Assembly: GCA_043228905.1 (NCBI GenBank)
Contig: JBHGNT010000003.1
Span: 24,552,001-24,616,000 of the forward strand
Direction of reading: 5' to 3'
DNA length: 64,000 nt
From: Azolla caroliniana
Lineage: Eukaryota; Plantae; Polypodiophyta
This document shows, in pieces, positions 30,384 to 61,098 of this stretch (its first letter is position 1; each line of letters starts with the position of its first letter). The position numbers and the translations under genes are program-made. The notes under the pieces were generated by a model. That model was not told the DNA's origin and searched no databases. It worked only from the letters and a program-made list of their open reading frames with translations.

Positions 30384-33300
30384 CTCTTCCGTTGCACAAA
30401 ATAACACTTGATTCTTTACATGGTATTAGAGTGATTTTGTAGCTTGATCAAAGCCCATCCGCGTGTGTTGTGCTTACGCCGACGTTCACGAAGAACCGGT
30501 TGATCGCTGTAGTAGCAACCCTGCACATTTCGTATCACAATGAAGAAGAAGAAGACAACTTGTTTCAACCAAGCCGACCATCATGAACACTCATATGGGT
30601 AGCTCTCTTCCTAGTGAAAAGTTGGACAGAAACAACTTTACATCTTAGGAATACAAGATTCACCAATACCTTGTCGGCCAAGGCTATTGGAGTTATATTG
30701 AAGGAGCACAAGAATCTTAACCCAACCCAATACACACCCGACTACCCAACTTGTGAGCAAATGGCAAGCCATGTGTTGTATTGCCTTGCATCATGTGTTC
30801 ATGATCATATGCTCATCTATATCTGAGAGGCCAAGATGCCCAAGGAGGCATGGGGGAGCCTCAAAAAGATCTTTGCGGCCAACATGACTGTACGAAAACT
30901 TCAACTCCGCCAAGAGTTGAATGATATTCAACAAAGGGACATGTTGATCGTGAGATACACCTTGAAGATCAAGGAGCTCAGTGACTCCCTTGGCTCGATC
31001 AATGTCAACATTGACGACGACGAGATGGTGCAAATATGTCTCGGAGGCCTAGGACCCCATTTCAGTGCAATCAGGACGAGCGTCCTCGAATGGGAGAATC
31101 CTCCCTCCTTCGATCTCCAATTGATGTTGTTGGTCGAAGAAAACCACTTCCGAACAAAGATCAATACATCGGAAGGACATATGCTCTATTCGAGTTCGGA
31201 CGGAGGAAGAGGGCGCGACCATGGAAGAAGGATCCAATATGGCCAAGGCTAAAACAACCAAAGGTAGTCCCATGAGCACAACTTCGGTTGGGAGAATAGG
31301 TCCCTCTGAATGGGATATGCAGGAAGCTGGATAATACAGAAGACACCCAAAAATTGGATCCGGATAGGGTTCCGAATCAACCGGAAGGCATCCGGAAATT
31401 GGATCCAGATAGTGTTCTAGATCAGCCAAAAGGCATCTGCAAACGATTGTGGCATGGTCACATAGAGGCCCTATTTGTAAATAGCCAACCTCAATGACAA
31501 CAGAAGAATGTTGTTCACTGGACGAAATAGCCAGGTCGACCATTTGTATGCATCTGGCCGAAAACGTCTATTTCAACATGGCCAAGGGGACGACAACGTT
31601 CTCTTTGTGGGAAAGTTACAGGCAATGTACGAAAAGAAGTCCTCCTCTTCAAAGTTGATAATAATCTGACAATTCAACATGAAGATGAGAGAGACAGTCC
31701 CGACAACATCCCACATCAACACCTTCAGTTGGGTGTTATCTGAACACTCCTCCCAAGGGATCAACATCGAAGAAAAAGTGAAATCCCTTGCCCTCCTACC
31801 AAGCTTGTTGGCTAGTTGGGAGGTATTCTGCGCAACATTTGCCAACAATTGTCCAAATATCAATTTGGACAAGGCAATCGAACAAGTCCTCATTGAGGAT
31901 ATTAGGCAAAAATCGATGGGACTCACAATCGACGAGTTAGCAGAAACCCACCACTTGACCGAGCCGATCAACTGATTCAGTCGATCGAGAGAACAAGCAA
32001 ACAAAACCAATCGGAATACCAATCGGTCAAAAACGAGGGGTCCCACATTCGCGTTCACAAGTGGAAGGATCGCGCATAAATGGAAGGATAAGGGAAATTT
32101 TGGTTGATTTTAGGGCTTTTTCAATGATTTTACAAAACACATTGATACCAGTATCATACATGTTCAAACATACTATGAAAAAGGTTAAAAATCCACTATT
32201 TTCGTGATTTAGAAGTAACTAAAAAAAGACGAATTTCAAAATGATACATTCTCAATTTATATCACAAACTTTACAACCAATGTTATTTTATAAGAAACGA
32301 TTTTTTAGAAATCATAAGAATTCAAAACACATGCTTTTATATTACTCGATTTGTTACAAGCGGAATGTAGTTACACTTAATAACCAAATATACATTCATG
32401 ATCACTCCTTTACGGAGAATCACTACTATAACTAATATACAATGACGATTCCTCCTCATCATCCTCGGATGTACCAATCGGTGCATTATCTTCGTCATAA
32501 ACCAAATGGTTTGACTCTAGATTATATGTAGCAGTTCTCATTTGCCTTTGACTCGAGCCACCTTGTAGACCTAGTAAATTTTCTTTTATTATATCTATTG
32601 TTGACTTCCTTAATCATCTGGCTTTTGTAAGTGTGAAGTCGTACACGATGATATCCACATCAGAGATATCAAGGGTCGAGGTGTTACGAATGTTTCGCTT
32701 CCTTTCCTACCTCCCCTTCTTGTTGGGCATTCAATCATCTCCAATGTATACTTACCTGTAAAAGCATTTGCACTTCTAGTGTTGTACCAATGAACATTTA
32801 TAGACTTGATCATGTTTTCTATTTCATGCATTAGCACTTCTAGAATTTTACCAACCCAAAATTGGTGGCCATGTGAGTTCTCATCAGTCGGCGTTGCAAT
32901 CAACATCCCCGCTGTCGGGGTTGCTACGCCCTTGCGTTGTCGGGGTTGCTACGCCCTTGCGTGTAGAAAGGAGGAGGGACCACGGGGGTCTCGAACCGAA
33001 GAGCAAGAGAGAGAGGAGTAAGAGAGAGAGACCCGATTACACAGAACCGAAGATCCGATTGCGCAGAACCGACGATTGCACAGGGACACGGCCCAACAAA
33101 CAGAGATCACAAATAAACGCCGACGCAGATGGACGCAACAACGAGAGATATGTGCTTATGAATGCAAGAAAATAACAGACTAAAGTGTTACAACCCACGG
33201 TGGGGCACAAAAAAAAAAGATACTAACGAAAACGAACAGGGCGGCGAACAGCTGCCGACCCCTGTATGTCGCGACGCACAAAAGGGAAAACAGGTCGGAG

Positions 33301-33729
33301 GTGCTGCAGGACGCACTCGGGGCGTTCCACGGAACAGCGCAAGCCTCCTCGAAACCTGCACAGGTACGCGATGGAGCAGAAGACAGAGAGAGCAGGAGTG
33401 AGAGAGAAGCTCCGAAATCGGTTCGGCAGCACTTCGTCCTCTCCGCGGGAGATACCCCACTTCTATTCTTCCTCTTCCTTTTATAGCCCGTCAAGAGGCC
33501 GTTTGGCATTAACTGCATACCAACCGAATCTACCCACCTAGGATCCTCGTATGTACCTACTTCGTCCTTAGGTACTTCTTGGCGCGCGTGTGTGTGTAGA
33601 GCCGTTTCCCACGCCTTGTTCCTCCGATTCCTCTTGTGGGCGGTTTTCTTCACGACATCCGCCCCCACCTAACCGCGCATCCACCGGCATGCGCCAAATT
33701 AAGTTGGCACGGAGAAAACCGGCCCGCCT

Positions 33730-36700
33730 TTACTCTTCGCCTGCCGGCCCTTCCTCGGCCTCGGATCGGTCGTCGCTGCTGTCCAGGAGAATCGGGTCGG
33801 GTTCGTCGTCGTGCCGCTTCTTGAAAGCTTTGATCCTCTTCCCGGCCACGGGTATCGCTATTCTCGTACCGTCGAGTTCCGCCAGATGATACGTCCCGTT
33901 GTCGTTGGCGCTCTGTACCGTGTACGGCCCGAACCATCTCCGTGCGAACTTCCTTGTTGCTCGGTGCTGGTTGTCGAGGCTGCTGTCGTAGACGAGCACC
34001 CAGTCACCTTCGTCGATTTTCTTCGGTCGTAGCCGGTGCGTTCGGTCGAACCGGGCTTTGTTCTTTGTCCTCGCCACCCGGAGCTTCTCCGTAGCCAGTG
34101 CCACGTCCTCCGGTCTCCGCTCGAGCTGTCGTATACGTGCGGCCAACAACTCCTCCCGGCTCATCTCGTCCCTCCAGTCGACCGTTGCCCACGAGGAGAT
34201 CGTCCGTTCTATCGGCATGATCGGCTTCTGGCCGAACATGAGCTCCGTCGGCGTGTACCCGGTTACCGAACTGTGCGTGGTCCGGTCTGCCCACAAAGCA
34301 TAAGGTAGAAGTCGCGGCCAGTTACCGACTTGGCCTCCGCATGCCCGAACCAGCGCCTTAACGATCGGCCCGTGTCCGCGCTCCACCTTTCCATTCGCCT
34401 CCGGGTTGTACGCAGTGGTGAGCGAGAGTTTGACTCCCAGCCGATCGAACAGCTCCGCGGCTTCCTCGGCGTCCAACTCCCCTCGGTCAGCCACGATCTT
34501 CCCGACGCACCCGTACCGGCATATCACGTCCTCGATCAGGAACCGACACACGGCCGCAGTCGTCTTGTTCTGAAGGGCTCGGCCTTCCACCTGGTTCGTC
34601 AGGTCTTCCCGCGCTAGGACCAGATACCGCATCTGGCCTACCCCCATCGGCATCGTCACCAGATCTACCATCCATTTGAAGTGGATAGTCGGGGGGTACG
34701 TAGGGTGAAGCCCGTCCCGGTGTCGGACTATCGAGTGCATCTGACAACTCTCGCAAGATGACACGAACCGATGCACGTCCCGGTACAATCCCGGCCACCA
34801 GTACTTCCCCTTCAGCTTCTCAAACGTCGCCCACGTTCCACGGTGTCCAGCCCAAGGGCTGTCGTGGTAGGCCGCCAGTAGCTCCTCCTGTTCTTCCTTC
34901 ATCGCCACTACCCGGAGCGGGACGCCGTTCCTCTTCTTCGGGTGCTTCCACAAATGCCCATCTCGGAGAAGGAATCGATATGCTTTCTTCCGGATCCGGC
35001 TGGCCTCGTCCTTCGTCCATGACGCATCGGGCGTCATTGTCTTCAAAAACCCGCCGATCTGCAGCCACTCCCCGTCGTACTTGCTCGCGTCGAACTCGTT
35101 AAGCGCCGGAGTGCTCGTCCCGTCGGTCGTTATGTATGCCGCCTCGAAGAAATCCACGCCGACTTCTTCGTCTTCCGAAACCATGCCGCCCTCGTCGTCG
35201 AACCTCGCCCTCGAAAGCATGTCGGCCATGGCGTTGTCTTTCCCGGAAATGTGTCGTATTTCCGGGTCCAGGGACTTGATGTACGCTATCCACCTGAGCA
35301 TCGCCAGGTCCGGAGTCGCGCATCCGGAAACCATACCGAGAATCGGCAGGCAATCCGTCTCGATGATCACTTCTGTCCCTATCAGGTAGTCTTTGTCGGC
35401 CTTAACCGCCGAAACAATACCCCAGAGTTCGCGTTTAACCTGGGCGTATCCTCGCTGCCGTTCACTGAGGACTTTCGCGCCGAATCGGATCGGAAACCGA
35501 TTACCGTCCTCGTCTTCCTGGTTCACGACCCATCCGATCCCGGTCGGACTGGTATCCACCGTTATGAATACCGGGGTACCCTTCCCGTATACCGCCTTCC
35601 GGAGTGCCGGTGCCGCTGCAAGGGCCTCTTTCAGCTTCCGGACCGATTCCGCGTGCTCGTCTAGCCATTCGAACCTTCGCCCCTTTTTCAGCAACCCGTA
35701 CAGTGGCTCCGCAACGTGTGCGTAATGAGGGATCCATATATGGTAGAACGCGCATGCCCCCAGGAATCTCCGTACTTCCGTGACCGAGCTGCAGTCGGGC
35801 TTCATCGCGGAGATGGCTTCTACCTTTGCCGGAGACGGTTTCCGGCCATATGGTCCGCACAGGTGTCCGACCACCATGATTTCTGACTGCCCGAAGGCCG
35901 ACTTCTCCCCGGAGAAGGTGAGTCTCGCATCCTCTAGCCTTTGCAGCACCTTCTCGCAGTCGTCGATGTGCGTCGCCACGAATCGCCGGCATCCGTCCGG
36001 CCCGATCGTCTCGTCCTTTTCTTCCACCGGGCATCCCTTGATCGGGATGTCGTCCAGAAACGGCATGGTGATGTCCGGGATACAGCCCCTCAGAACCTTG
36101 TTCATCGCATTCACCATGTGGGCCACCGAGTTGGTCCCTCCTTGCGGCAGTGTACACATCCGAACTAGGCCGAGGGGAGTTCGCATCGTCGTAATGTCTC
36201 TGCTCTCCACGGCTAGCTGGAACTGGTCGTACCCTGAGTATAGATCCCCGACCGAGTAAATTGACCTTCCGGCGAAGGCCTCCGCGAACTCGTCTATGGT
36301 CGGTCCGATCCCTGCGTTCCGAATGGTCACTCGATTGACCGGCTGCAGGTCCTGGATGAAGCGCAACGAACCGTTTTTCTTCGGTACGGTAAACCATCGA
36401 TTCGAATATGGGGCGCTCGACGGCTCGAGAATTCCCATATCAACTTTCTGCCTCAGCAGCTCCATCAACTTCGGGATGTGAGCTCTCGGAACCGGGATTG
36501 GCTTGAGATTCCATGGTACATGCGGTACCGTGAATATCACCATCGGCTCCACGATCGTCGGGTCAACGCACCCGATTTCCTCCGGCGAGAATGCGAAGGC
36601 TTTCCCGTGCCTTCCGAGCATTCTCCGAAACCGGTCTTCCTCCGCCGGCAGTAGGAACCCGCCCCCACCGATTTTGAGCTCTCGGAGCGTCTCGTCAGTG

Positions 36701-37227
36701 AAGGTGTGCCCTATGCAGGCCGGATCTCGTAGACTAGGGTCCGATGCAACCCCTTTGATTCTCGACGCGCTGTCCTCCGGTAAGGGTGCCGCTACTGGCC
36801 TTACCTTCCGGTCCACAGTCTTGTACTTGGTGTTTACGTGGGCCGTCCGAACTGACTCGAGCCCTCGACCGAAGTCCGCGATGACTTCGTACATCTCCTC
36901 GGAACACACCGGTATCGTCCGGTCTTCGTTAAGGCCTTCTTCGACTACCTTTCCCAGCATTCCCAAGGTGTCGTCGAATGAGACCGCCTCCACGGCTCCG
37001 TTGATTTCCTCGTCCGGGCCGAGAACTCCGCACGCTCGAAGTCTCCCCTCCGCCTTTGTCTTCTCTCGGCCGCCGATGCCGACTATCGTACACGCTCCGC
37101 TGTCGGAGAACAAAAATTCCCTACCTATGGTACAAGGTTTCTTCGGTTTTATCGTACAGGTGTGGGGTTTCCCCGGGGTGTCCGGACTGTCGCGGCCCCA
37201 CGCCTTGGCAGCCCTCTCTAAAAATCC
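33730..37227 (-). CDS. pol: RT-RNase H-integrase ORF of Gypsy-A, probably entered by -1 frameshift
   Basis: RT motifs LPQGGTNS and FLDD; RNase H DTS, ETDC and NAMADMLSR; integrase HHCC, DD(35)E and GPY. The frame stays open upstream of the TTG at 37113 up to the gag stop. No chromodomain. Confidence 0.9.
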   Translation of the reverse strand, partial: GFLERAAKAWGRDSPDTPGKPHTCTIKPKKPCTIGREFLFSDSGACTIVGIGGREKTKAEGRLRACGVLGPDEEINGAVEAVSFDDTLGMLGKVVEEGLNEDRTIPVCSEEMYEVIADFGRGLESVRTAHVNTKYKTVDRKVRPVAAPLPEDSASRIKGVASDPSLRDPACIGHTFTDETLRELKIGGGGFLLPAEEDRFRRMLGRHGKAFAFSPEEIGCVDPTIVEPMVIFTVPHVPWNLKPIPVPRAHIPKLMELLRQKVDMGILEPSSAPYSNRWFTVPKKNGSLRFIQDLQPVNRVTIRNAGIGPTIDEFAEAFAGRSIYSVGDLYSGYDQFQLAVESRDITTMRTPLGLVRMCTLPQGGTNSVAHMVNAMNKVLRGCIPDITMPFLDDIPIKGCPVEEKDETIGPDGCRRFVATHIDDCEKVLQRLEDARLTFSGEKSAFGQSEIMVVGHLCGPYGRKPSPAKVEAISAMKPDCSSVTEVRRFLGACAFYHIWIPHYAHVAEPLYGLLKKGRRFEWLDEHAESVRKLKEALAAAPALRKAVYGKGTPVFITVDTSPTGIGWVVNQEDEDGNRFPIRFGAKVLSERQRGYAQVKRELWGIVSAVKADKDYLIGTEVIIETDCLPILGMVSGCATPDLAMLRWIAYIKSLDPEIRHISGKDNAMADMLSRARFDDEGGMVSEDEEVGVDFFEAAYITTDGTSTPALNEFDASKYDGEWLQIGGFLKTMTPDASWTKDEASRIRKKAYRFLLRDGHLWKHPKKRNGVPLRVVAMKEEQEELLAAYHDSPWAGHRGTWATFEKLKGKYWWPGLYRDVHRFVSSCESCQMHSIVRHRDGLHPTYPPTIHFKWMVDLVTMPMGVGQMRYLVLAREDLTNQVEGRALQNKTTAAVCRFLIEDVICRYGCVGKIVADRGELDAEEAAELFDRLGVKLSLTTAYNPEANGKVERGHGPIVKALVRACGGQVGNWPRLLPYALWADRTTHSSVTGYTPTELMFGQKPIMPIERTISSWATVDWRDEMSREELLAARIRQLERRPEDVALATEKLRVARTKNKARFDRTHRLRPKKIDEGDWVLVYDSSLDNQHRATRKFARRWFGPYTVQSANDNGTYHLAELDGTRIAIPVAGKRIKAFKKRHDDEPDPILLDSSDDRSEAEEGPAGEE

Positions 37228-39344
37228 TCTCGGTTATCGGAGCCGAGGGAGTTGCGGTTACGCTCGTGGTTCGGCCTAACCGTCAAAAACTGGACCGAAT
37301 GGCGCCCGTCCTGGCTCTTGACCCGCGCATAGGCCGAACCGTTGTCCAGCACCTTGGTCTCCATTCGAGCCGCCGTGATGTACGGCTCCCCCAGTATGAC
37401 GGGGTGCGATGACGACTCCTGCACGAAGAAGTGCTGGTCTATCTCGACATCGCCGATCTTGACCCGTACATTCGGGCAGGCCCCGTGAAGTTCCTCGGTG
37501 GCGCGCGTCGCCGCCCTTATCTTCCACCCGTGCTTGGTGTTGATCGGCCATTTGCCCTTCTTATAGAAGTCCATGGACATCAGGTTGATTTCCGATCCGT
37601 GGTCCACCAAAGCTACTACCGGTTCCTGGACATCGCCGATCTTTACCGGGGTTTCCGTGGTCGCTCGGGCCCAGTGTGGCCGCGAATAGTGGCTCTCCGC
37701 CCACTCGTCTTCCAGCGCCATGTCGTCCAGGTGCGTCGCCCGCACTTCCACCGGTCTTTCCGGTTCTGTCTCCGTTGACAGCCTCTTCCGTTTCACCAAG
37801 TCCACGATGGAGTCGTGGAACTCCTTCTTGGCGATTCCCAGCACCTCCCGTAGCGACAACTCCACCTTGCTGTCGAGGATCCGTTCCTCCAGGACCTTCC
37901 GTAAGTCCGTGGTTCTTTCTATCTCCGTCCCCAGACGGTACCCGCCCTTCTGGGGTTTATCTTGCATACCGGCCCCGCCGGCTTCGTCCCGTCGTGGCCC
38001 GGACCGGGTCTCGTATCGTTGCGAGGGCCCGGTCGTCCCGGGTTTCGCCACCCGCCTCTCTTCTACCAGAGCCTCGTAGTTCCGGCAAGCGGCTTCCACG
38101 AAGCCCGTCTTTTCCTCGACCGGGTCGCTCCACCCGGTCATCTCCCGTACCCGTTTCTCCGCACGGTCCGATTCCTCCCTTTTAAGCCCTGCACCGGCAA
38201 GGCCTTCTAGCATCGTCGGCCAGAATCCGGCTTTGCTTTCCTTTCGGGCCTCGCCGCCCCCGACTCGAATGCCGGCCGACGCCGAGTAGTGGACGGTTTC
38301 CGCGTGTCGGGCCGCCGCCTCTTCCATCACCCTTTTCATACCACCTCGCCCGTCGTTTCGGCTCAGGGCCCTTCGGGTGTCGCTGGCATGCACCCGTCCT
38401 TCCCACAGGTACACCACCCTGTTCCTCAGCGCCTCCGCAAAGTCGCCGCAGTCCTTCCGAATGTGGCCGACTTCATCGCACCACATGCACCTGTTTCCTG
38501 CCGCCGGCCGTCGGTCACGAGCCGGTTCGCCTCCTTCCCTTCGGGCCTGCGCGATTTGGAGGTCCTTTATCGCCTTCGTCAGTTCCTCCAACGCAGCTCC
38601 TCCAGTCGAGCCTCTGATCACGCCGGTCGGAGCTGAACCGGATTCCAGCCACTCCCGAGTCTCTTCCCTTCGCACCGGCTGCGCCGGCTCGAGTTTCCTC
38701 GCCGCGACTGAGCCCGACCCGGCTGCCCTGTCATCCTCCCATTCTCGCCGTTTGTCGAAACGGCCGCAGGCTCTCTTGACCGCCGCCCAGTCGGCTGTCA
38801 GCCCGTCTTCGGTTTCTAGCAGGGCGCCCACGTGACTCCGATCCCTCTCGTCAACCGATTTGACGAACAGCAGGACCCGGCTTGTATCCAGGACCATCCT
38901 GTCAAGCGCCGAAAGGCGCGCGAAGTTCTCCTCGAACTCCCGGAGGAGTGCCGACGCATTCCTTCCTTTCCCGGGAGACTCCACCCACTCCATGAAGCTT
39001 CGCTTCGAAAGCCGGAGCGCGTCGTCCAGTCCGTATTTTTCCAGGAGCCGACCTTCAAACTCCTCCCAGGTACGGCTCTCCGCCCGCACCTCGAGCACCT
39101 CTGCGTGGATGCTCGGCATCGCCACTCGGGGAAAACCGGCAAGGCGCCTGTCTTCCGGAATGTCCCGCATTAACATTTCCGCACCGTAGGACGCCAGGTA
39201 CTTCGTGGCATCTTTTCCGGTGAATCGACCGATCGTTCCGACGACCGCCTCAATAGCTCTATCGAGGGCGCCGGTGCCCTCGCGCGCGCTTACTATCCGA
39301 TCCACGGCCGAAGCCATGGCCTCTGCAAGATCCGCCCCCTTCAT
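37218..39344 (-). CDS. gag: Gag-protease ORF of Gypsy-A (708 aa)
   Basis: Zinc knuckle CMWCDEVGHIRKDC; aspartic protease motif ALVDHGSEINLM...VILGEPY. Confidence 0.9.
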   Translation of the reverse strand: MKGADLAEAMASAVDRIVSAREGTGALDRAIEAVVGTIGRFTGKDATKYLASYGAEMLMRDIPEDRRLAGFPRVAMPSIHAEVLEVRAESRTWEEFEGRLLEKYGLDDALRLSKRSFMEWVESPGKGRNASALLREFEENFARLSALDRMVLDTSRVLLFVKSVDERDRSHVGALLETEDGLTADWAAVKRACGRFDKRREWEDDRAAGSGSVAARKLEPAQPVRREETREWLESGSAPTGVIRGSTGGAALEELTKAIKDLQIAQARREGGEPARDRRPAAGNRCMWCDEVGHIRKDCGDFAEALRNRVVYLWEGRVHASDTRRALSRNDGRGGMKRVMEEAAARHAETVHYSASAGIRVGGGEARKESKAGFWPTMLEGLAGAGLKREESDRAEKRVREMTGWSDPVEEKTGFVEAACRNYEALVEERRVAKPGTTGPSQRYETRSGPRRDEAGGAGMQDKPQKGGYRLGTEIERTTDLRKVLEERILDSKVELSLREVLGIAKKEFHDSIVDLVKRKRLSTETEPERPVEVRATHLDDMALEDEWAESHYSRPHWARATTETPVKIGDVQEPVVALVDHGSEINLMSMDFYKKGKWPINTKHGWKIRAATRATEELHGACPNVRVKIGDVEIDQHFFVQESSSHPVILGEPYITAARMETKVLDNGSAYARVKSQDGRHSVQFLTVRPNHERNRNSLGSDNREDF

Positions 39345-39366
39345 TTCCTACTCTTCTGCCGCCTCT

Positions 39367-39384
39367 TTCACGTCGGGTTCACCA
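39367..39384 (-). other. Primer binding site complementary to tRNA-Trp (Gypsy-A)
   Basis: Plus strand TTCACGTCGGGTTCACCA equals the 3' 18 nt of plant cytosolic tRNA-Trp including CCA (tRNA sequence recalled, not searched). Confidence 0.85.
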
Positions 39385-42300
39385 AGATGTCGGGGTTGCT
39401 ACGCCCTTGCGTTGTCGGGGTTGCTACGCCCTTGCGTGTAGAAAGGAGGAGGGACCACGGGGGTCTCGAACCGAAGAGCAAGAGAGAGAGGAGTAAGAGA
39501 GAGAGACCCGATTACACAGAACCGAAGATCCGATTGCGCAGAACCGACGATTGCACAGGGACACGGCCCAACAAATAGAGATCACAAATAAACGCCGACG
39601 CAGATGGACGCAACAACGAGAGATATGTGCTTATGAATGCAAGAAAAGAACAGACTAAAGTGTTACAACCCACGGTGGGGCACAAAAAAAAAAGATACTA
39701 ACGAAAACGAACAGGGCGGCGAACAGCTGCCGACCCCTGTATGTCGCGACGCACAAAAGGGAAAACAGGTCGGAGGTGCTGCAGGACGCACTCGGGGCGT
39801 TCCACGGAACAGCGCAAGCCTCCTCGAAACCTGCACAGGTACGCGATGGAGCAGAAGACAGAGAGAGCAGGAGTGAGAGAGAAGCTCCGAAATCGGTTCG
39901 GCAACACTTCGTCCTCTCCGCGGGAGATACCCCACTTCTATTCTTCCTCTTCCTTTTATAGCCCGTCAAGAGGCCGTTTGGCATTAACTGCATACCAACC
40001 GAATCTACCCACCTAGGATCCTCGTATGTACCTACTTCGTCCTTAGGTACTTCTTGGCGCGCGTGTGTGTGTAGAGCCGTTTCCCACGCCTTGTTCCTCC
40101 GATTCCTCTTGTGGGCGGTTTTCTTCACGACACCGCGGTGAACTCTTGCAAATTGCCTTGCCATCTAGCTTCGGCTGCTTTGGTCATCCTTGGTCCCACA
40201 TAAATTTCTCTTTGTTGTGGATGGACTAAGCTGTCATTAATCGCATTTGCTAGTTGCTCCGGAGTTCTATTTACGCGATCATGTTGCAGCGACCATGTGA
40301 ATGGCGTTTCCAAATTCCAATTATCACCAGATACACAATTGTCTATAATTCCTTTCTGATCACTATAAAATACATCCCACCATGACGTGTCTTGTTGTGT
40401 GGCATATTTCTTGGCGGCCTCAATATGCTTTCTTTTTTCTTCTAAGGCTTGGAGCCATGACCGTTTTTGTTCTGATACCAAGTCGCTCTGCAACTGTCCT
40501 TTCTTCTCAATTGGCATTTGCTTAGCTCCATGGACAATTGTACTCGGCATACAAAGTAATAACTGGCAACCACCTTCAGGTTCCCATGTTGTAGAAGATG
40601 AATATTGTTTAGCATACAAAAGTGTAGAACCACTTATTCCATTTTTCTTTATCATAAAAATGTGATTGAAACTTATATTGTTTAACTGAGCAAGCACTTT
40701 AACATTCCCACCACCCCCATCTGATATATATCTCTTAAAGTCATATACCGCCTTCAAGTGTAACACTTTTGGGCGTGGTGTATATGCATCACAAATGACA
40801 TCAAATAGTTTGGAGATCGACAACAGTCAAAGTCGAGAACTAGTTGACCATACGATCTCTGCACCCATTGCAGAAAATCTGGTCACAACATTTCCGACTG
40901 TTGGTTGATCAAGAGGAAAGAGAGTGGTCAGCGATCCGAGCGGAATCGAGGACGATACGACTCGAACAACTCGTCAATTGGCAACCAAATCAATGTTGCT
41001 GACTCCCAATAAGGGGGAATCCTCTCTCTCGAGGACTTGGTGATCGGAGAAGTCATGTACAGTGCGCAAGACACACATACGTGGTTACTGGACTCCGGTG
41101 CTACATTCCACGTGACCCCTAACATCGAATGGTTTTCGAACTATTCAGCTGGCGCTAGCGGCACAGTTTGGCTAGGCAATGGGCAGGAATACCAAATCGC
41201 CAGAGTAGGCGAAATACCAATTCAATTGTCGAATGGCAACACAATTGCCCTGCACTAAGTTCGGCATGTACCGGCACTGAAAAGGAGTCTGGTCTCCATC
41301 GTCATGTTGGCCGAAGACGGGTACAAAACGACTCTTAGTGAGTCAGCATGGTTGATCAACCAAGGGAACCTAAAGATCGAAAACAGACACAAGTACAATA
41401 ACTTGTATCCATAGATGGCGATCCATCCAGAAAGGGGTGTGAACATAGCCAAAATGACCGACCCGAACTTATGGCATGACCGACTCGGCCATATGTCGCA
41501 AGCCGGACTGGATCGGCTAATGGCGGCCAGCTACATCCCGAAACTCTTGGTGAAGACGAACTTCTGCGAGCATTATCATTATGGGAAACAGACCCGAAGT
41601 CTACACTCTCTCCATTACGAGACGGTACAACAACCCTAGAGCTCGTGCACATAGATATATGTGGGCCTATCCCTGAGAGATCACTAGGTGGCTCCCAGTA
41701 GTTCATCACATTTGTAGATGATTGTACACAGAAAGTTTGGGCCTATTCGATTAGGTCGAAAGACAAAGCGCTCTAGGTCTTCACTCGGTGGATAGGTGAA
41801 GTGGAGAACCGGTCGGGACACAGAGTGAAGACATTCCGATCCGACAACAGAGGAGAATACAATTCCCGAGACAAACAATACCTATCTAACAAAGGGATTC
41901 GACATCAAAAGACCGTTCCACACACACCCATGCAGAATGGAGTGGCAGAACGGATCAACCGAACGATCCAAGAGAGGGTGACGACAATGCTCCAGCAAGC
42001 CGAACTGAAGCTGGAGTTCTGGGCCGAAGCATTACAGATGGCAGTATACCTGATAAATTTGTCACCGTCGAAAGCAATCATGTTCAAAGTGCCACAGGCA
42101 CTATGGTCAAGCAGACAACCGACCTACAAAAGGCTTTGTATATTCGGATGTGAAGCCTATGTATTCATCCTCAAGGAGAAAAGGACCAAGTTAGTCCATA
42201 TTTCTCGGTTATGGAACCAACGGGGATTTCGGCTACCGACTATGGGACCTAGAGAACTGGAAACTGATCCGGAGTAGCAACATAGTCTTCAATGAAGACT

Positions 42301-45977: not shown

Positions 45978-45980
45978 GCT

Positions 45981-46016
<36 letters not shown>

Positions 46017-47026
46017 GTCATACATACACACATACACACACACATATCGTACATACATACATATGTTCATATGTACGTACATACATAAATACACACATAC
46101 ATACATACATACATGCTCGTGTCTAATTGCTACAAAATAATGAAGAGGGTTGGCGAGGGAACTGTGACCACGAACGGTGTAGGGCGCTTGGCTGAGGGAG
46201 TGTGCAATTTGCACCGTTCGATATGGATTAAAAAAGCGCGTTAGTGAAAAAGTTGTAAGTCACTAAACACCCAACCTGACACCCTGCTCCATTTTCAAAC
46301 ACCTTGTTGATCATTTTCAGACACTCGACTCTATTTTCAAACATCCTGCTAATAATTGCTAGACACCCCATTGATAATTATCAGATACCCTGCTCAAATT
46401 AGACATTAAACCCTTGAAAAAATTCTAAATGTAAAAAAATAAAATTGACATCAAAATGTTACACAACTCCACTAAAAAACATCAATCTTCCAATTACACT
46501 AAACTTAATGCTTAAAACTTCAAATTACAAATGATATAATCACAAAATGTCCAATATCTAACTTCAACACTTAATACATATAGACAAGTTTGAACATGTA
46601 CATATACATTTTGAACATGTTGTGTAACAAGCTTTAGAAAGTGAATCAACGAATGGGGGCCCATACTGATCATAAATCAGTTATGCATTCCATAGTTCAA
46701 TAATGTTGCAATGAGTTTCTCCATCTAATGATACTCTGTAGATTTTCAAATTCCATATTGATTATGAAATTTATTATACTAAAGTTGTACTTTTAACTAT
46801 TTCATAAGTTTGTTGTATCTTTGGGCTTGTAGGTACACACACACACGCACGCATGCACGCACCCCCACACACAAGCTCAACACTTAATAGATATAGATGA
46901 GCGTGGATGACCTATGTCATACATTTTTCTGTACTTGTGATCAAATGTTCGTTGCGTGCATGATCTATGTCATACTATTTTTTCATACATTTTTTGTACT
47001 TGTGATCAAATGTTTGTTGTGCACGT

Positions 47027-50000
47027 TGTCGCGTTGCTACGTGCGTGCGTGGAGAAGGGTGGGACCACGGGGGTCTTGGACTAAGGAGTAGAGGAGAAGG
47101 AATCGGACATGGAATGGAAGCTTTGCTCAAGAAGAAGAAGAATGAACAAGAGATTAGATCGAACAAGAGGAAGATGGAGACAAGATGATCAACAAGATGT
47201 ATTAAAACGAAATGAACGATTACAAAATGGTGGCCGCATAGGCCACACCAAACGACTACTCGAAACCCTAACCGACGAAGATGAAGATAAAGATAAAGAA
47301 ACCCTAACCCTAACCCTAACGCTCGACCTATGTGGTATACCTCGCACACTCAAAATAGGCAACCCCCACAATGGTGCCTTCCCTCTCCTTTTATAGCACA
47401 AAGAGGGAAGACCGTTTACAAAAGTGAGACTAAAATATCCCCTTTCATTCAAAGGGGATATTTGCCTTCATTTGGGGAGGGTGAGAATAATGGCCCCTTA
47501 ACTCCCACCTCCACACAAACAACTAGGTACCTATGTACCGCATAGTACCTCTCTCTCTCTCGCGCGTGGATGTGCGCACAAGACCACATCACCTTTATAC
47601 CTTAGGGATCCTATGGGGCATTTCTAGCACCATACACTTTACCCTTATTACTATTACAAATACATTATGTACGTGTGCAACGTTGCACATCGCTCTTTGG
47701 CTCTCGTTGCTCAGGTTTCCGCTTGTGGACGAAAATCTTCACGACATCCGCCCCCACCTAACCGCACATCCACCGGTATGTGCCAAAACATAGGGGAGAG
47801 AACACGAGATTTTCGGCCACAACAACCGACCGAGTCCTTAGAGTCCTCGTGGGCCCGCCCGGTTTTGTCTTCCACTTCGAGCAAGACCACCTCGTCCACA
47901 CGAACCACCGCCGCCTTCCGGTCCACCATCCTCGCCAAATGGTCTCGAACCGTCGGCGCCATCCGATCCACCACACTCGACGAAGTTCGCCGAGTCGTTG
48001 CCTCCACCCGATCCGCCACGTCCACCGTGGGTCCTTGAACCATCGACTACATCCGACTCGCCGTATCCGATGCCCGTGCTTTCCTCCCCGTTCGGTCCTC
48101 CCGAACGCCGTCGTCGACCCGGTTGCTCTTCCTTTGTCCGCCTCGTATATCCTCCGGATGCGCTCCCGGTCGCATGCCGGATTCCGCCCTTCGCGTGCCG
48201 CGCACCTCGGCGTGCCGACTCTCTCCGCTCCGCACTTGCCTTCCGTAGGCTTTCCCCGTATGTCGATGCTCTCCTCTGAATGCGTGCTCGTGCTTCGGTC
48301 CTTCAATGACCCCATCACGTGCTTTTCGCTTTCCCCTTGTTCACCGTGCTCTCTCGCGGTAGAGCGTGCCATAACCTCGTCCTTCTTCATGGCTCTCGTT
48401 ACCGCTTCGCCTCGATCCGCGCCCTCTTGGCCCTCTTGGCCTCGCATGTCCTTCGGGACATCGCGTTTTCTCTTCCCGGTGCGTAGCGCTCCGTTCTCCA
48501 CGCACCTCCTCCGTTTTCCTAGACACAACTCTCCGCTCATGCCGATCGCGCTCGGCCCATGTCGTCGATCTTGGTGTTTCGCCGCGCCGTCCTTCGTCCC
48601 GCGCTTGCCTCTTGAAGGCTTGACCCGACCGTCATCGTCGGTCAATCATTGTCGGCCATCAGCCGTATGCATGCTTGTGTCTTGGCCCTCCCCCGGTTGT
48701 ATTGCATGTGTCTCGTGTCGCGCTTCCGTCGTAGACCCGACCTCCGCGTCGGTCTCTAACTCCTCGCCGCCACCCACCGTTTCTTCGGTCTCCCTTCGAT
48801 CCGCGACCGTCGATGCCTCACGGATAGGTGTGGAGGGTTCCTCCCACTCTCGGTCCACCACCGAGTCCTCGCCTCTCAAAGGCTCAATCGGTCCACCGTT
48901 TCCGGTCACTCGTTGATGCTCCCCCAAGTGCATGCTTGTTCCTTGACCCTCCGCCGGCCGTAGTGCATGCTTCACTTCACGCTCATCCGTCGTAGACCCG
49001 ACCTCCGCGTTGGTCTCTTCGTCCTTCCCACACCGGGCATCCGCTCCGGTACCCGATTCCGCATTGTCTTCCAACTCCTCGCCGCCACCTGCCATCTCTT
49101 CGATCTTCCGTTGATCCGCAACCGCTGAAGTCTCAAGCATAGGTGTGGAGGGCTCCTCTTGCTCTCGGCCTCTCACCAACCTGTACTCGTCGTGCCCGGC
49201 TACGAATCGATCAAGCAATCTCGGTCTTGCCGGCTTCCTTTGGTTCGGGCCTGGTTGACCGGCCCCCGCTTCACTCTTCTTCCGCTCCGCCTCCCAGTCG
49301 GGTCGGATTACCGACCGGCTCATCTTTCGGTCGGGTCGGTTCCCGACTCGCTCCTCGATGCCGCTCCGGACCTCTCCTTCGGTCTTTTCGCACGTGCCCA
49401 CTCTGGGCCTCTCATCCTCACGGCCACCGCCCATCTCTCCGGTCTTATGTCCGCGCTCGGGCGCAACCGCCGAAGTCTCCGGCCCCGGTGTCGAGGGATC
49501 TTGCCTCCGTCCGCTACAAACCTCCTCTTCGTCATTTCGGTTGCCCGCCTTGCCGCCGCCACCGTCCGTCTCTCTAGGTCTCACACCGGCTCTTGGGCCG
49601 ATTGCTGGAGTCTCTAGGACCGGTGTGTGGAAGGTCGCGGCACCGCCGCTCGTCTCCTCTTCTTCCTCGGTTTCGCAAGCCTCGAGTATGCTCGCGAAAT
49701 CCTCGTAGAATGTTTCGGGCAACCGTGTCCCGAAACTTTCGCCCACTCTTGAAGTGGCGTCCATTGCTCCGTAGATATCGGCCTCATCCATGGCCGTCCT
49801 CTTTCCACAAGTTGAGAGGGTCGCTCGCTCCGCACCCTCTCCCACATCGTCGCCGTGGTCGCCCGCCTTGCCGCCGCCACCGTTCGTTACCCTAGGTCTC
49901 ACGCGGGCACTCGGGCCGGCCGTCGGGGTCTCTTGAACCGGTGCGTGTAAGGTAGCAACGCCGCCACTCGTCGATGCTATGCCCGTAGCCACCTCCATTC

Positions 50001-51722
50001 GAACATTGTCGTCTGTGGCTACCCCGCCTCCGTATATGCAAGCATCAATTATGCTTGCCGCCTCCTCTTCCACGGTCTCCATACCATTGTCTCGGTTGCC
50101 CGCCTTGCCGCCGCCACCGCTCGTCGCTCTAGGTCTCACGCCGGCAATCAAGCCGACCGCCGGTGCCTCTAGGGCCGGTGTGTGTAAGGTCGCGGCATCG
50201 CCATTTGTCTCCTCCTCACTCGATGTTTCGGGCCTCCATGCCTGAACTCCCTCATGTCCGCTCGAACCGGCGATCGCTGCCTCACCGTCCCCGACCTCAT
50301 CCTCAGTCGATCTTTCTCCGTATGTCGAGAGGGTGGCTCGCTCCGCAACCTCTCCCGTGGTACCGATGTACCATTCTCTTTCGGCCTCCTCATCCTCCGA
50401 TCCGCTCGGGCCCGACTCCGCAATAAGCCCTTCTTTGGCTTCGATTTGTGCCTCTACGATCTCGTACGCTTCCCGCACCAAGGCTTCGATGTCGAGCTCC
50501 TCCGAACTGATTTGCGTTGAGCTCTCTTCCGGTGGTAGTGCGTAGTCGGTCGCCACTCTCTCTTCTCCACCATTTGCGGGCCGTGTTGTGGCCGACCGCC
50601 TCTCATCGCATTGTATGCACGCCCATTCCACCTCATTCCAATCTTCGATGAGGCCATACGCCCCTTCATCGTCTTCGAGGTAGGGAAAAATGGTCATTCT
50701 CCCCCTTTCGTTGACCGACTTCAAGAATAGTGGGACCTTGTCCGCCCCCACCGATTCTTGATCCCGGACCGAAAGTTGGGAAAACCGGAGATCGAACTCC
50801 CGGAATGCCTTCATTGCGCTTCGAGGAGCCTTTGCCGACGACACCCATAGATCGAACTCGCGTCGATCGTACTTGTACGCCTCTTCAAGTCTTTCTCTCC
50901 TTCTTGCGTAATCCCTTGCCATTCTCGTAATTACTTCCGCAATGTCTCTGTCTTCCATCTCCTTCCTCCCTTGCCGCCTCTTCACGTCGGGTTCACCAAA
51001 TATGTCGTGTTGCTATGCGCATGCGTGGAGAAGGGCAGGACCACGGGGGTCTTGGACTAAGGAGTAGAGGAGAAGGAATCGGACATGGAATGGAAGCTTT
51101 GCTCAAGAAGAAGAAGAATGAACAAGAGATTAGATCGAACAAGAGGAAGATGGAGACAAGATGATCAACAAGATGTATTAAAACGAAATGAACGATTACA
51201 AAATGGTGGCCGCATAGGCCACACCAAACGACTACTCGAAACCCTAACCGACGAAGATGAAGATAAAGATAAAGAAACCCTAACCCTAACCCTAACGCTC
51301 GACCTATGTGGTATACCTCGCACACTCAAAATAGGCAACCCCCACAATGGTGCCTTCCCTCTCCTTTTATAGCACAAGGAGGGAAGACCGTTTACAAAAG
51401 TGAGACTAAAATATCCCCTTTCATTCAAAGGGGATATTTGCCTTCATTTGGGGAGGGTGAGAATAATGGCCCCTTAACTCCCACCTCCACACAAACAACT
51501 AGGTACCTATGTACCGCATATTACCTCTCTCTCTCTCGCGCGTGGATGTGCGCACAAGACCACATCACCTTTATACCTTAGGGATCCTATGGGGCATTTC
51601 TAGCACCATACACTTTACCCTTATTACTATTACAAATACATTATGTACGTGTGCAACGTTGCACATCGCTCTTTGGCTCTCGTTGCTCGGGTTTCTGCTT
51701 GTGGACGAAAATCTTCACGACA
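47027..51722 (-). mobile_element. Non-autonomous Gypsy-lineage LTR element without pol (Gypsy-B)
   Basis: 720-bp LTRs at 47027-47746 and 51003-51722; 4-bp TSD ACGT; tRNA-Trp PBS at 50981-50998; PPT region identical to Gypsy-A (TCCGCCCCCACCTAACCGC). Confidence 0.93.
47758..50958 (-). CDS. Gag-derived protein with long acidic repeat extension (one in-frame TGA at 48646-48648)
   Basis: N-terminus aligns with Gypsy-A Gag (REFDLRFSQLS..KVPLFLKSVNERGR..GLIEDWNEVEWAC vs REFEENFARLS..RVLLFVKSVDERDR..GLTADWAAVKRAC), followed by E/G/T-rich repeats. The downstream 295-aa ORF is in the same frame. Confidence 0.7.
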
Positions 51723-56084: not shown

Positions 56085-59000
56085 TACAAATCCCTGTAGG
56101 GACGCGATAGTTCCATCTTATGTGGATGCCCACTGACTCAAGAAAGGGAGAGGACGACCATTGTTGGATGAAGGCCATTCGTTGTCTTTCAATTCCATCG
56201 GAAGCGCCCTTGAGGCCATCATATTAGCTCTTTAGAGTGGCTACAATTTCACTCCATATCTCTTGCAGTAACATTGTTGGATGCGCGGTTAGGTTGGAGA
56301 AGACCCGTCTACACCGTTGTTTCCATAGAATCCAAAGAGTTATTGGGCTGACCAATTCCACCACAACTTGAGATTTGTCATTAAGAGGAGTTGAGTGGAC
56401 ATTGCCGATGGTGGAGAAAAAAACTTCTTGTGCTTTTATCACCAAAGTCATGCTCGTATTTGCTAACCGGGGTCTGCCATGATAGCCAACATATATTTCC
56501 CCACTTGATTGAGCCTTGCACATGGCATAATTGCAACAAGCGGCCAACCCCCCACCATATTCGATAGGACGTTGGGCAGACCCATAGAGCGTGTCTTATT
56601 GATTCTACTGCATCTAAACACTCTACACAATTGGGAGAGCTAAGGTTCCCACGTTGCCATGCTCCCACCGGTAGTGACTTATGTATTAATAGCCATTGGA
56701 ACGTGGTAATTTGCCTCGCGTGTTCTTGTTTCTAGATTTTCTGTCAAAACTTGGTGATAATTGAGTGAGGAACTTGATATGCGTGCCAAACCTTTGCAGC
56801 AACCAACTCTCGGGCGGTTTGAGCAGCTAGAATGTGGCGATCCAATCTAGTTGTGAATTGGAAGAAAGGGATGGGTTTGCTTCCTTGGCCCGTGTAAGGA
56901 TCATGCCATGTCCATTGCAAAGGGTCCCAACTGACCTTACATAGTCATGTGTTTTCATGAGTACATATGTGCCAATCGGGTTGTACTTTGATTGGATCAG
57001 GATCTACAATCCATTTATGACCAGTATACGCGAGTACTCAAATTGCGTTATTCTGTGTTGGTGTCTTAATGGCTCGCAATTCAGAGCCTTCGATCATGTC
57101 TGGTGTTCCCGTACCTCTCGGGATCAAAGATCCCTCCTCCTAATAGCCTATCCATTTCTCCATTGTCGTCCTTTGAGTAGCGGCTTCCCTAATCAGTAGA
57201 GCGTTGATGATTTCCAATCTCATAGTCCATCCGCCCCTGATTCCATGAAGTATGTTGGCTTGATCTTGTAGTGGCAATGACATAAACCGTATCCAACATT
57301 CTATACTTTTTCCTAGACCTTCTACAATGTATCCCCATGACAACCCCTTACTTGATCCAAGTAGTTGATTAGATTCATCCTTGATACATGGGTTCCATAG
57401 GATACGTTGGTTGAGCCAGGCAGGTTCGGAACTCGGTTGATCGCACTTGAGCCCTCGTCTAATTTCACACCATGCCTTCCACATGGATGCATTAAATCTT
57501 TCCTCCAATTGGCGGGAGAAACTAGGTTTGAGATCCATGTTTAGAATCCATCCTGTTTGGGGGGCCCAATTGACCCCTTTTCGTGGCCTAAAGTAAGCGA
57601 AACATAACCGCAGTAGCATTTTCCAACAATCATTTCCTGGTTGGAGTCCTCACACCACAAATTTGGCAAGTAAGGCTTTTCATTGTGAGAGGGGATCAAT
57701 AAGACCCAATCCCCCTCTAGACATAGGTGTTGTGAGTATAGGCCACGCTACCTTGGCACGAGTTACATGATCTTCCTTACCGGACCAAATGTAGTTGCGT
57801 ACCTGTCGTTGAATATGATGTATACTTTCCTTGGAGATTGTCCAACATGATTGATTGTACCATGTTGTTGCGAGTAGTACCTAGTTTTGCCACTATGATG
57901 CGACCCACCAGCGACAATTTTTTTGAACTCCAATGTATCAACTTTTGTCGAATGGAATGGATAACAGGTACAATCATAGTCTTCGGTGGTATGTTGAAAC
58001 CAATTTGGAAACCCAAATATTTGGTGCTCGCTCCTTGATTGATCCATTTGAAAGCGAGATGTGGGTGCCACGCAGGATGTGTTTCATGAGAAAGCCATAT
58101 TGCACAGGATTTGTGCCAATTGATCATGGCATTGGAGCTCTTGCAAAATACGGCTAACCCACTTTCGAGCTTTTGTAGTTTTTCCAAGTCCCCTTGTAGG
58201 TAGACTGTTGTGTCATCTGCAAATGCTATATCCAGGATGCTTTGGTGAGAATGAGGCACGGGAATACCACGTAGGTTGAGATGTTGCGAGTTGAGAAAGC
58301 AAGAGAGTGCTTCGGCATATAATAGAAATAAGGATGGAGCTAGTGGGCATCCCTGTCGTATAGATTAGGATATTCGAAAAAAGGGGGCCCTTTCACCTAC
58401 AAGTGAAACGCAACTGTTGCCGTTCCTATAAAGTCCGGCAATGCCTTTGATCCATGTCTCTTGAAAGTTGAGTTTCCCCATCACACTTTCGAGAAAGTTC
58501 CAACATACCCTGTCATATGTTTTGTCAAAATCTAGTAGCACCACTGCCACCTTGTTGTTGGTATGCTTTGCTAGGGCTATTGCTTCCCAGAATGAGAAGA
58601 GGTTGTCTAGGATGCTCTGATTTCTAACAAAACCTATCTGGGATGGATGAATGAGTTGAGGGAGAAATGGTGTTAAACGGCGTGCCATGATTTTTACAAG
58701 CAACTTATAGATAGTATTGAGAAGAGTTATGGTCCGCCACTTGCTAATGTCGTTGGCACTCCCACCACTTTTAGGAATGAGATGTATCATCCCCTGTCCA
58801 AATTCCTCCTGCGTGTTTCCAAAGGTGATGATCTCCTCATATGCCTAGAGGAGGTCTTCTTTAATAGTGTCCCAAAGGCATGTGAAAAAGTGAGGGGTGA
58901 GGCCATCAATTTCGGGGCAACTATCTGCATCCAAATCAGAGAGGGCCTCCCATATCTCGATGATTGATAGGGGACGCACAAGCCATGTATTCATTTCCGT

Positions 59001-59590: not shown

Positions 59591-60373
59591 TTATGAAATA
59601 AGATATAGGACATGATGGTGAGTGTATATTTCTCTTGTCACTGCTTCCTTCTTGCATTGCTGACCTTTATGTACTTTTTGTTGGTCTCCCGTGGTGTTAC
59701 AAATTAAAATACTCATTATAATATTTAGATTAAGAAAATAATTATCTAAGGCTACGAAACCACACTAACCACCCCCAAGCGAAGGATAAAAGACTAGCAA
59801 AAAGTCAAGTTTATTTATTTTTATTTACTATTAAAAGGTGTCATGAACTTAATCATTGAGGGTGATAAGAAGCATTATTAAGAGGAGCTTATCATTTGGA
59901 AGAAATTTTGTCATAAACATTTGTAATTTGGCCTCCAATTTTGTTGTTGTTTAGATCTACCCTCATTTGAGATAGATCTAAGGCATAGTTCAATAGTTTT
60001 AAATGAGTTTTTACATCTACCCTTATCTTGGTCCATGTTGACGTTGATAAGAATCTCATCATGGAAGTTAATACATTTGATTTTTCACTAGAAAGTGTTT
60101 TATCACATGTTGGAGATGATAAGAAATCAAATTCATTTGTGCACATTTGAATATGCAAAAATGAATTATGGGATTCATGACAATTGAAGAAACATTTTAT
60201 GCATAGTTTAAGGACACTATATATAAGCTACTTTTTTCTTCACTTATTAGTAAAATGTTTTTGGCTCCCACTCATATCCTAGTCATAACCTCGAGCGTAT
60301 TAGTGTACATCCCTAACCCAAGGTACATGCTATATGTGACTATATAGTTATATGGCATGCATATAGTTCACAT

Positions 60374-61098
60374 TGTCGAGGTTATCCTCGCGGATGCGTA
60401 GAAGTCGGGCAGGACCACGGGGGTCTCGAACCAAAGAATCAGGAAAACGAGGAGGGAGGAGTTTGGGGCCGCGTAGGTCTTGAGACCACGGGAGAGCAGG
60501 TAAGTCTAGCTAACGAGAGAGAGCAAGAGAGTCACACGTAGACACAGACACGGACAAAGACACTGAGAACGAAGTATGTTAGGTAGAAAGAGTTCTCTTC
60601 AAACACAGGCGCACGGTGTTGTGGGTGGTTACAGCCGGATTAGAGCCGGTGATGGAGCGCGGAGCTCGGCAAATGGCCAGGTACAAAGAGACGTCGGTGC
60701 GCAAAAGGTTGATCCCCAGGTCGGGAGCACTCGGGCGTCTGACGCGAGCAAGGGGAAGCCCCTTCTTCCGCGGTCCGTCCTCGGTCTTTCTCTGTGTACC
60801 CTCCTCTCTAGATGGCATCCCGAAGACAGTCAAAGGTCGCCCCTTTTATAGCACAAGGAGCGACCGTTACAAGCATTCATGACCCGTCACCCTTTGTCCT
60901 TGATTCTCTCCCTTGATTTACTCTCCTCGTAACTCTCCCTACTTATGCAATTGTCTATGCTCTAACTACCTAGTACCCCTCCTTATACTCATGCCTAGTA
61001 CTTGCCCTATTTAATTCCCTCGAGGCGTGCACTCGCGTAAACCGGTGTTCCTACGCGTTTCATCTTGTTTCTACCTATGGCCCGGAATCTTCACGACA
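60374..61098 (-). mobile_element. Solo LTR of a third member of the Gypsy-A/B group (Gypsy-C)
   Basis: 725 bp, TGTCGAGG...TCTTCACGACA; 4-bp TSD ACAT; shares the GGACCACGGGGGTCT and CCTTTTATAGC blocks with the Gypsy-A/B LTRs. Confidence 0.9.

What the first reader, a model, noticed from the sequence alone, without database searches (positions are those of the whole stretch)
32913..61098. A tRNA-Trp-primed, 4-bp-TSD Gypsy group present as autonomous element, non-autonomous partner and solo LTR
Seen: three insertions (32913-40132, 47027-51722, 60374-61098), all in minus orientation. Their 720-745-bp LTRs have dissimilar interiors but share TGTCG...TCTTCACGACA termini, the TATA block and a U5 block. 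All have 4-bp TSDs (CCGC, ACGT, ACAT). A and B also share an 18-nt tRNA-Trp PBS and an identical PPT region. Established: typical plant Gypsy lineages (Tekay, CRM, Reina, Athila, Tat/Ogre) make 5-bp TSDs and prime mainly with Met, Asp/Asn, Lys or Arg tRNAs. Inference: a poorly described lineage, possibly closer to fungal or bryophyte non-chromoviruses, that works as a helper/dependent system and is currently active (about 3 mismatches in the 745-bp LTR pair).
Basis: partly seen in the sequence, partly recalled or inferred. Interest (0 to 1): 0.82.

Follow-up and report, generated by a model that had tools for sequence, protein, structure and literature searches.

The report
Phygy-like CpG-targeting retrotransposons with dependent partners
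These three insertions are real jumping-gene copies from one large, recently mobile family that inserts at CG sites and carries a tryptophan-tRNA primer site, traits already published for the moss 'Phygy' lineage, so they are likely an ordinary member of that lineage, here probably in a fern-type plant and accompanied by enzyme-less copies that likely borrow its machinery.

Summary
In detail: A (7,220 bp, LTR pair 3 mismatches), B (4,696 bp, 10 mismatches) and solo LTR C have 4-bp TSDs. A and B share an 18-nt PBS matching the genome's own tRNA-Trp(CCA) genes.

The novelty claim mostly fails. REXdb already lists the non-chromovirus lineage Phygy with 4-bp NCGN TSDs (100%) and a tRNA-Trp PBS (81%). 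In this genome 48 of 48 perfect TSDs, among 64 complete elements, are NCGN and none is 5 bp. A has GAG-PROT, then RT-RH-INT in the -1 frame, with no chromodomain or aRH. Its only named close relatives are liverwort (Riccia) proteins at 57-70%.

No labelled Phygy sequence could be obtained, so tree placement, the primary criterion, is untested. I call it Phygy-like.

A, B and C are three families, not one trio. C is the solo LTR of a second pol-encoding family. B belongs to an old, still-mobile Gag-only (TR-GAG-like) group.

Modest additions: the host carries MIR168 and MIR396, so it is probably not a moss; non-autonomous ORFs stay open; and a hairpin covaries around the PPT.

The parts
32913..40132 (-). 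Element A: intact autonomous Phygy-like Ty3/gypsy LTR retrotransposon, 7,220 bp, TSD CCGC (GCGG on element strand, NCGN)
39388..40132 (-). A 5' LTR, 745 nt; ends in a 25-nt tandem duplication present in both LTRs
39367..39384 (-). A PBS, 18 nt, complementary to the tRNA-Trp(CCA) 3' end
37218..39347 (-). A GAG-PROT ORF (709 aa stop to stop, ATG at 39344): DUF4100, CCHC knuckle at aa 287, protease-type DHG motif at aa 582
37221..37227 (-). Candidate -1 frameshift heptamer GGATTTT directly before the GAG-PROT stop
   Evidence: function inferred
33730..37233 (-). A RT-RH-INT ORF (1,167 aa) in the -1 frame; FLDD at aa 392, HHCC zinc finger, GPY; no chromodomain or aRH hit
33623..33742 (-). A predicted rod-like RNA hairpin enclosing the PPT (33658-33670); internal 3' arm pairs with LTR nt 10-20
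   Evidence: (z -1.8)
32913..33657 (-). A 3' LTR
47027..51722 (-). Element B: non-autonomous Gag-only element, 4,696 bp, TSD ACGT
51003..51722 (-). B 5' LTR, 720 nt
50981..50998 (-). B PBS, the same 18 nt as in A
48646..51012 (-). B ORF (788 aa stop to stop, ATG at 50958): aa 42-139 match A Gag aa 107-201 at 38% (E 5e-15), then an acidic repetitive tail; continues in frame for 295 codons after one stop (47758-48645)
47712..47831 (-). B predicted hairpin enclosing the PPT (47747-47759)
   Evidence: (z -3.7)
47027..47746 (-). B 3' LTR
60374..61098 (-). Element C: solo LTR (725 nt, TSD ACAT/ATGT) of a second pol-encoding family whose Pol is 74-75% identical to A's

Best explanation
A, B and C are three families of one large, recently mobile Ty3/gypsy non-chromovirus group with 4-bp NCGN target duplications and a tRNA-Trp primer site, and the group is likely the known Phygy lineage or its immediate kin. 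Shown: A encodes GAG-PROT followed by RT-RH-INT in the -1 frame; insertions centre on CG; B and its relatives encode only Gag-derived sequence; C belongs to another pol-encoding family. Inferred: A makes Gag-Pol by a -1 ribosomal frameshift at GGATTTT, primes minus-strand DNA with host tRNA-Trp, and its integrase makes a 4-nt staggered cut around a CpG. B-type RNAs keep the cis signals (LTR ends, U5 block, PBS, PPT with its hairpin) and would be packaged, reverse-transcribed and integrated in trans by any of several autonomous families. C would have arisen by LTR-LTR recombination.
For: Phygy is listed as 186 elements, 4-bp TSD 100% (NCGN), tRNA-Trp 81%, no extra domain, no eORF (supplementary table read whole; passages). 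Census: 64 complete elements from 135 fetched loci; 48 perfect 4-bp TSDs, 48 of 48 NCGN; 8 differ by one transition; 8 do not match; 0 of 64 are 5 bp. Flanking CG frequency is 5.6%. The PBS matches genomic tRNA-Trp genes. Pfam finds RT, RH, INT and DUF4100, and no chromodomain or aRH family. In an 82-row RT-RH tree, A, the C family and Riccia proteins lie in one 37-row clade, support 100/100, stem 0.59. B has no pol match (best E 0.49), yet 9 of 9 perfect TSDs among 12 complete B-family copies are NCGN, the same integrase signature. Two Gag-only relatives (L207, L219) have identical LTRs.
Against: No labelled Phygy sequence was available (REXdb files too large), so tree membership is untested and the tree has no named lineage as reference. 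A (7,220 bp) lies below the Phygy size range of 7,656-9,968 bp. The host carries MIR168 and MIR396 hairpins, so it is probably not a moss, whereas Phygy was defined from Physcomitrella. TatI also has 4 bp plus Trp, so those two traits alone do not mark one lineage. C's own TSD (ATGT) is not NCGN. The frameshift motif is identical in 21 of 21 intact copies, but these are close kin of A, and no stimulatory structure stood out downstream (z +0.5). Trans-mobilisation is not shown directly.
Confidence: 0.8

Rival explanations
1. The group is a separate, unnamed non-chromovirus lineage of non-seed plants that shares the Trp PBS, 4-bp NCGN TSD and architecture with Phygy by common ancestry or convergence.
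For: The host is probably not a moss (with paper passages). Elements are shorter than Phygy. No Physcomitrium-named protein appears among the 120 rows listed of 323 hits.
Against: NCGN preference is reported for Phygy alone among plant lineages. Most hits are unnamed, so the lack of a moss name means little. Phygy has been annotated in a liverwort genome, so it is not confined to one moss.
Confidence: 0.15
2. A is a TatI or Selgy element.
For: TatI has 4-bp TSDs and a tRNA-Trp PBS; Selgy has 4-bp TSDs and overlapping ORFs.
Against: TatI has an aRH between PROT and RT; that 230-aa stretch of A has no Pfam hit. Selgy primes with tRNA-Ala and averages 5 kb. Neither is listed with NCGN preference.
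Confidence: 0.03
3. B-type elements are only decayed deletion products of an autonomous family and their ORF is neutral debris.
For: Different subfamilies lost different halves of the Gag region. Tail dN/dS is 0.57-0.81, near what transition-biased drift can give with this method. Many B copies carry stops or frameshifts.
Against: B Gag is only 35-40% identical to autonomous Gag and all 12 complete B copies lack pol, so the loss is old and was amplified afterwards. The ORF frame has 2 stops against 24-36 in other frames in L219, L213 and B; longest ORFs are 784-1,428 aa against shuffle maxima of 244-334. Gag-region dN/dS is 0.36-0.42.
Confidence: 0.15

Closest known systems
Phygy (REXdb Ty3/gypsy non-chromovirus; Neumann et al. 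2019, PMC6317226)
   Same: 4-bp TSD, NCGN target motif, tRNA-Trp PBS, no chromodomain, no aRH, no extra ORF, coding region filling the interior (98% of A's 5,730-nt interior).
   Different: A is 7.2 kb against 7.7-10.0 kb; the host is probably a fern or other euphyllophyte rather than Physcomitrella; ORF organisation, 'ND' for Phygy, is here GAG-PROT then RT-RH-INT in the -1 frame; Gag-only partners are not mentioned in the passages and tables read.
TatI (REXdb)
   Same: 4-bp TSD, tRNA-Trp PBS.
   Different: TatI has an aRH between PROT and RT and is about 9.1 kb; A has none and is 7.2 kb.
Selgy (REXdb)
   Same: 4-bp TSD, non-chromovirus, short, overlapping ORFs.
   Different: tRNA-Ala PBS, about 5 kb, overlap between GAG and PROT rather than after PROT.
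TR-GAG and other non-autonomous LTR elements (as discussed in PMC13570524, passages read)
   Same: LTRs, PBS and PPT kept, GAG ORF kept, enzymes lost; an autonomous partner often cannot be traced by similarity.
   Different: B keeps only part of the Gag region fused to a long acidic repeat tail; sister subfamilies keep the other part or both.
Fungal Ylt1-like and SN_1006 non-chromoviruses (PMC2864245, passages read)
   Same: Non-chromoviral gypsy; the atlas gives Basidiomycota DUF4100 clusters as next neighbours of A's Gag-PROT (lead only).
   Different: Rows outside the near clade are mostly 34-45% identical over RT-RH and unnamed, so the link was not tested.

Membership tests
Phygy | RT-RH-INT clusters with REXdb Phygy references (primary criterion) | not testable with these tools
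   REXdb FASTA and element table too large to read; the tree has no labelled Phygy row
Phygy | 4-bp TSD | tested here: met
   48 perfect 4-bp and 0 5-bp among 64 complete elements
Phygy | NCGN target preference | tested here: met
   48 of 48 perfect TSDs; flank CG 5.6%. Solo LTR C (ATGT) is an exception
Phygy | tRNA-Trp PBS | tested here: met
   18-nt match to genomic tRNA-Trp(CCA)
Phygy | No chromodomain, aRH or extra ORF; coding region spans the interior | tested here: met
   Pfam; ORFs cover 5,615 of 5,730 internal nt
Phygy | Length 7,656-9,968 bp (descriptive; the paper calls size relatively insignificant for classification) | tested here: not met
   A 7,220 bp; most complete pol-bearing copies 6.9-7.6 kb
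Phygy | Host Physcomitrella patens (sampling at description; later annotated in a liverwort) | tested here: inconclusive
   MIR168 and MIR396 hairpins below Rfam cut-offs but with mature-like arms point away from moss; host not named
TatI | [quoted passage not shown] | tested here: not met
   No Pfam hit in that 230-aa stretch; my intended positive control held no aRH protein, but the paper reports pfam13456 hits below 1e-10 in 2,926 of 2,941 aRH domains
Selgy | tRNA-Ala PBS | tested here: not met
   PBS is tRNA-Trp
Chromoviruses (Galadriel, Tekay, Tcn1) | Chromodomain after INT; Met or self-priming | tested here: not met
   No chromodomain; Trp PBS
TR-GAG-type non-autonomous element (B) | GAG-derived ORF kept, RT/RH/INT absent | tested here: met
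   Gag match E 5e-15; no pol match; 12 of 12 complete B copies lack pol
TR-GAG-type non-autonomous element (B) | Mobilised in trans by an autonomous element | not testable with these tools
   Inferred from shared cis signals and NCGN TSDs

The most novel reading that the evidence does not exclude
A strictly CpG-targeting Phygy-type lineage spans liverworts and ferns and has a long-lived Gag-only companion lineage whose translated, truncated capsid-acidic-tail proteins are kept by selection and act on the helper, for example as dominant-negative copy-number control like Ty1 p22 (recalled). A covarying RNA rod around the PPT serves as the shared cis signal for trans-mobilisation.
Probability: 0.12. 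Interest if true: 0.6.

Novelty: new member of a known kind. Interest (0 to 1): 0.27.

Why it matters
As it stands this is a well-preserved example of a known but little-studied lineage. It offers what the moss copies did not: intact young elements (ORF organisation was 'ND' for Phygy), a probable range extension to a fern-type host, and a clean system for asking how an integrase picks CpG sites and whether methylation matters. The Gag-only partners and the PPT hairpin give testable cis and trans requirements for non-autonomous mobilisation. None of this changes how LTR retrotransposons are understood to work.

Tried and rejected
1. Labelled Phygy sequences: REXdb supplements 1 and 3 were too large to read and may settle membership. 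One supplement of PMC6911290 held none of the three search terms; two of its files are scans and were not searched. The cluster look-up could not be made.
2. Earlier scan findings were not open.
3. aRH positive control: the long proteins scanned were tandem polyproteins without aRH, so I have no control of my own.
4. Single-sequence AlphaFold of A's Gag N-terminal region: pLDDT 45, not used. The two 'halves' of the capsid region are assigned by position only.
5. RNAalifold on 13 sequences found the inner hairpin (2 pairs with compensatory changes) but missed the outer stem, which the alignment put out of register; the register-free test was used instead.
6. Frameshift stimulator: no stable structure downstream (z +0.5).
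7. Expression: two poly(A) runs of coded organism C gave 817 and 580 reads on 19.7 kb from about 12% of each run. Reads over A were mostly sense but mostly under 95% alike. That is low transcription of relatives, not of these copies.
8. An empty-site junction for A (4 letters fitting both sides) appears in DNA run X4, but the flank is itself a repeat, so it does not prove polymorphism.
9. The animal CsRn1 clade (Trp PBS, 4-bp TSD; recalled, no call) was considered and dropped because the named relatives and host markers are plant; not tested by tree.
10. Literature searches: 'DUF4100' 0 papers; 'fern genome' with 'Phygy' 0; NCGN with retrotransposon, target site and CpG 1 unrelated listing; PPT stem-loop search 4 papers, 3 listed, none read. 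These cover only the open library.

Full report
Observation. A self-comparison of the window finds two LTR pairs, 32913-40132 and 47027-51722, and a third LTR at 60374-61098 with the same termini. A has 745-nt LTRs with 3 mismatches, B 720-nt LTRs with 10, and C is 725 nt. The flanking duplications are CCGC, ACGT and ACAT, and none extends to 5 bp. The three LTRs are hardly more alike than shuffles (0.55 against 0.50-0.51) but share an exact TATA block and U5 block. A pattern for the tRNA 3' end has 63 exact matches in the genome. All 8 loci fetched hold tRNA-Trp(CCA) genes, and their 3' end plus CCA complements 18 nt of the PBS in A and B.

Anatomy of A. A 709-aa ORF carries DUF4100, a CCHC knuckle and a protease-type motif. 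A 1,167-aa ORF in the -1 frame carries RT, RNase H and integrase. No chromodomain or aRH family was hit. The ORFs overlap at GGATTTT followed by the stop. Of 42 near-full pol-bearing copies, 21 have both ORFs intact, and all 21 show this junction with pol in the -1 frame. They are close kin of A, so this shows the break is not a lesion of one copy; a programmed frameshift is inferred. No stimulatory hairpin stood out.

Genome census. Exact LTR-end plus PBS junctions number 536 with a 3-nt spacer and 1,861 with a 4-nt spacer. I examined 135 fetched loci: 60 and 40 from the first listed places of these two sets, 27 from the B family and 8 from the C family. They gave 64 complete elements; the rest were truncated, nested or not resolved by the script. 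Of the 64, 48 have perfect 4-bp TSDs, 8 differ by one transition, 8 do not match, and none has a 5-bp TSD. All 48 perfect TSDs are NCGN, against 5.6% CG in the flanks. Seven of 35 and 3 of 14 elements have no LTR substitution, so insertion is recent. Current activity is not shown; RNA reads from a related organism are few and mostly under 95% alike.

Three families. C's LTR occurs on full-length elements whose Pol is 74-75% identical to A's and whose LTRs differ by about 6%. C is therefore the solo LTR of an older pol-encoding family. Of 6 apparent solo copies, 2 have perfect TSDs (C itself and one NCGN), 3 differ at one CpG position and 1 does not match. B has no pol sequence, but aa 42-139 of its ORF match A's Gag at 38%. 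All 12 complete B copies lack pol, and 6 of 14 complete elements in the 4-nt-spacer sample are Gag-only or pol-less relatives. L219 keeps the whole Gag region in a 1,428-aa ORF and has identical LTRs. L204, L207 and L213 keep only the first part, and B only the second. The ORF frame is kept open: 2 stops against 24-36 in other frames in three of the four tested, while L207 is frameshifted. Uncorrected dN/dS is 0.36-0.42 in the Gag part and 0.57-0.81 in the tail, against 0.13-0.19 for autonomous Gag. Selection is relaxed but probably not absent.

Shared cis signals. Besides PBS, PPT and U5 block, the 3' end of the interior can pair with LTR nt 10-20, enclosing the PPT in a rod. Fold z-scores are -1.8 (A), -3.7 (B), -5.0 (C family) and -6.2 (L219). 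The arm sequence differs by family, and in 64 of 64 elements the element's own arm pairs better than the mean of other families' arms (9.6 against 6.7 of 11). These elements fall into about four arm types, so this is a few events, not 64. The function is untested.

Relatives and host. Over RT-RH the named hits are Riccia sorocarpa proteins at 57-70%; closer hits (up to 86%) are unnamed (120 of 323 listed). A search of 50%-identity representatives shows a small set above 50% and then a drop to 45% or less. In a tree of 82 rows chosen from 245 (37 at 50% or more, 45 below), the near rows form one clade with support 100/100. The tree has no named lineage. The genome holds MIR396-like and MIR168-like hairpins. 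One paper states miR396 is absent from moss (10.1101/078907, passage); another that miR168 is found in ferns and angiosperms but not lycophytes (PMC5569507, passages). The host is thus probably a euphyllophyte; fern is my inference.

Comparison with what is known. Neumann et al. 2019 (PMC6317226; passages and two supplements read) list Phygy with 4-bp NCGN TSDs in 100% and a tRNA-Trp PBS in 81% of 186 elements, and name it as the exception among plant lineages in having a target motif. A second paper reports 4-bp TSDs as commonest in Phygy (PMC6911290, passages), and a liverwort genome paper annotates Phygy (PMC12885004, passages). TatI and Selgy fail on aRH and PBS. Gag-only non-autonomous elements are a described category (PMC13570524, passages). 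The primary membership test, a tree with REXdb references, could not be run, and A is about 0.4 kb below the Phygy size range. I therefore call the group Phygy-like: it has Phygy's target and primer traits, and is probably a member.

Verdict. The additions are the probable host range, the ORF organisation, the Gag-only partners and the PPT hairpin. New member of a known kind; interest 0.27.

Noticed in passing
G000:C8:17796786-17823371, C16:4989495-5105657, C5:10105608-10112201: Clusters of tRNA-Trp 3'-end matches: about 1.2-kb spacing on C8, 871-bp spacing on C5 (confirmed as tRNA-Trp genes in L076-L078) and an irregular cluster on C16; 63 exact matches in all. An unusually expanded supply of the primer tRNA.
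   Followed up: partly
window 39388-39437 and 32913-32962: A's LTR ends in a 25-nt tandem duplication that includes the terminal CGACA, present in both LTRs; close relatives have 715-722-nt LTRs.
   Followed up: no
window 47027-47061 and 51003-51037: Six of B's 10 LTR mismatches cluster in the last 35 nt of the LTR, which may reflect template switching or conversion between subfamilies.
   Followed up: no
L017, L019, L065: Elements with near-identical LTRs whose two flanks are mostly NCGN-like but do not match each other, suggesting recombination between copies or assembly joins.
   Followed up: no
window 19778-20359, 41777-42277, 53391-53978, 57777-58844: Fragments of other retroelements: Copia-type RT (RVT_2), Copia-type integrase/SH3 and RVT_1 pieces. 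The window is a nest of decayed transposons.
   Followed up: no
window 46917-47019, 61446-61603, 7879-8444: Local tandem duplications and satellite-like repeats, two of them beside elements B and C.
   Followed up: no
window 35501-36439 (-): A 312-aa alternative-frame ORF inside pol, seen as 325 aa in many A-type copies; possibly a by-product of GC-rich coding.
   Followed up: no
L023: An A-type copy with identical 342-nt LTRs, half the usual length, and a perfect NCGN TSD, so a shortened LTR still transposed.
   Followed up: no
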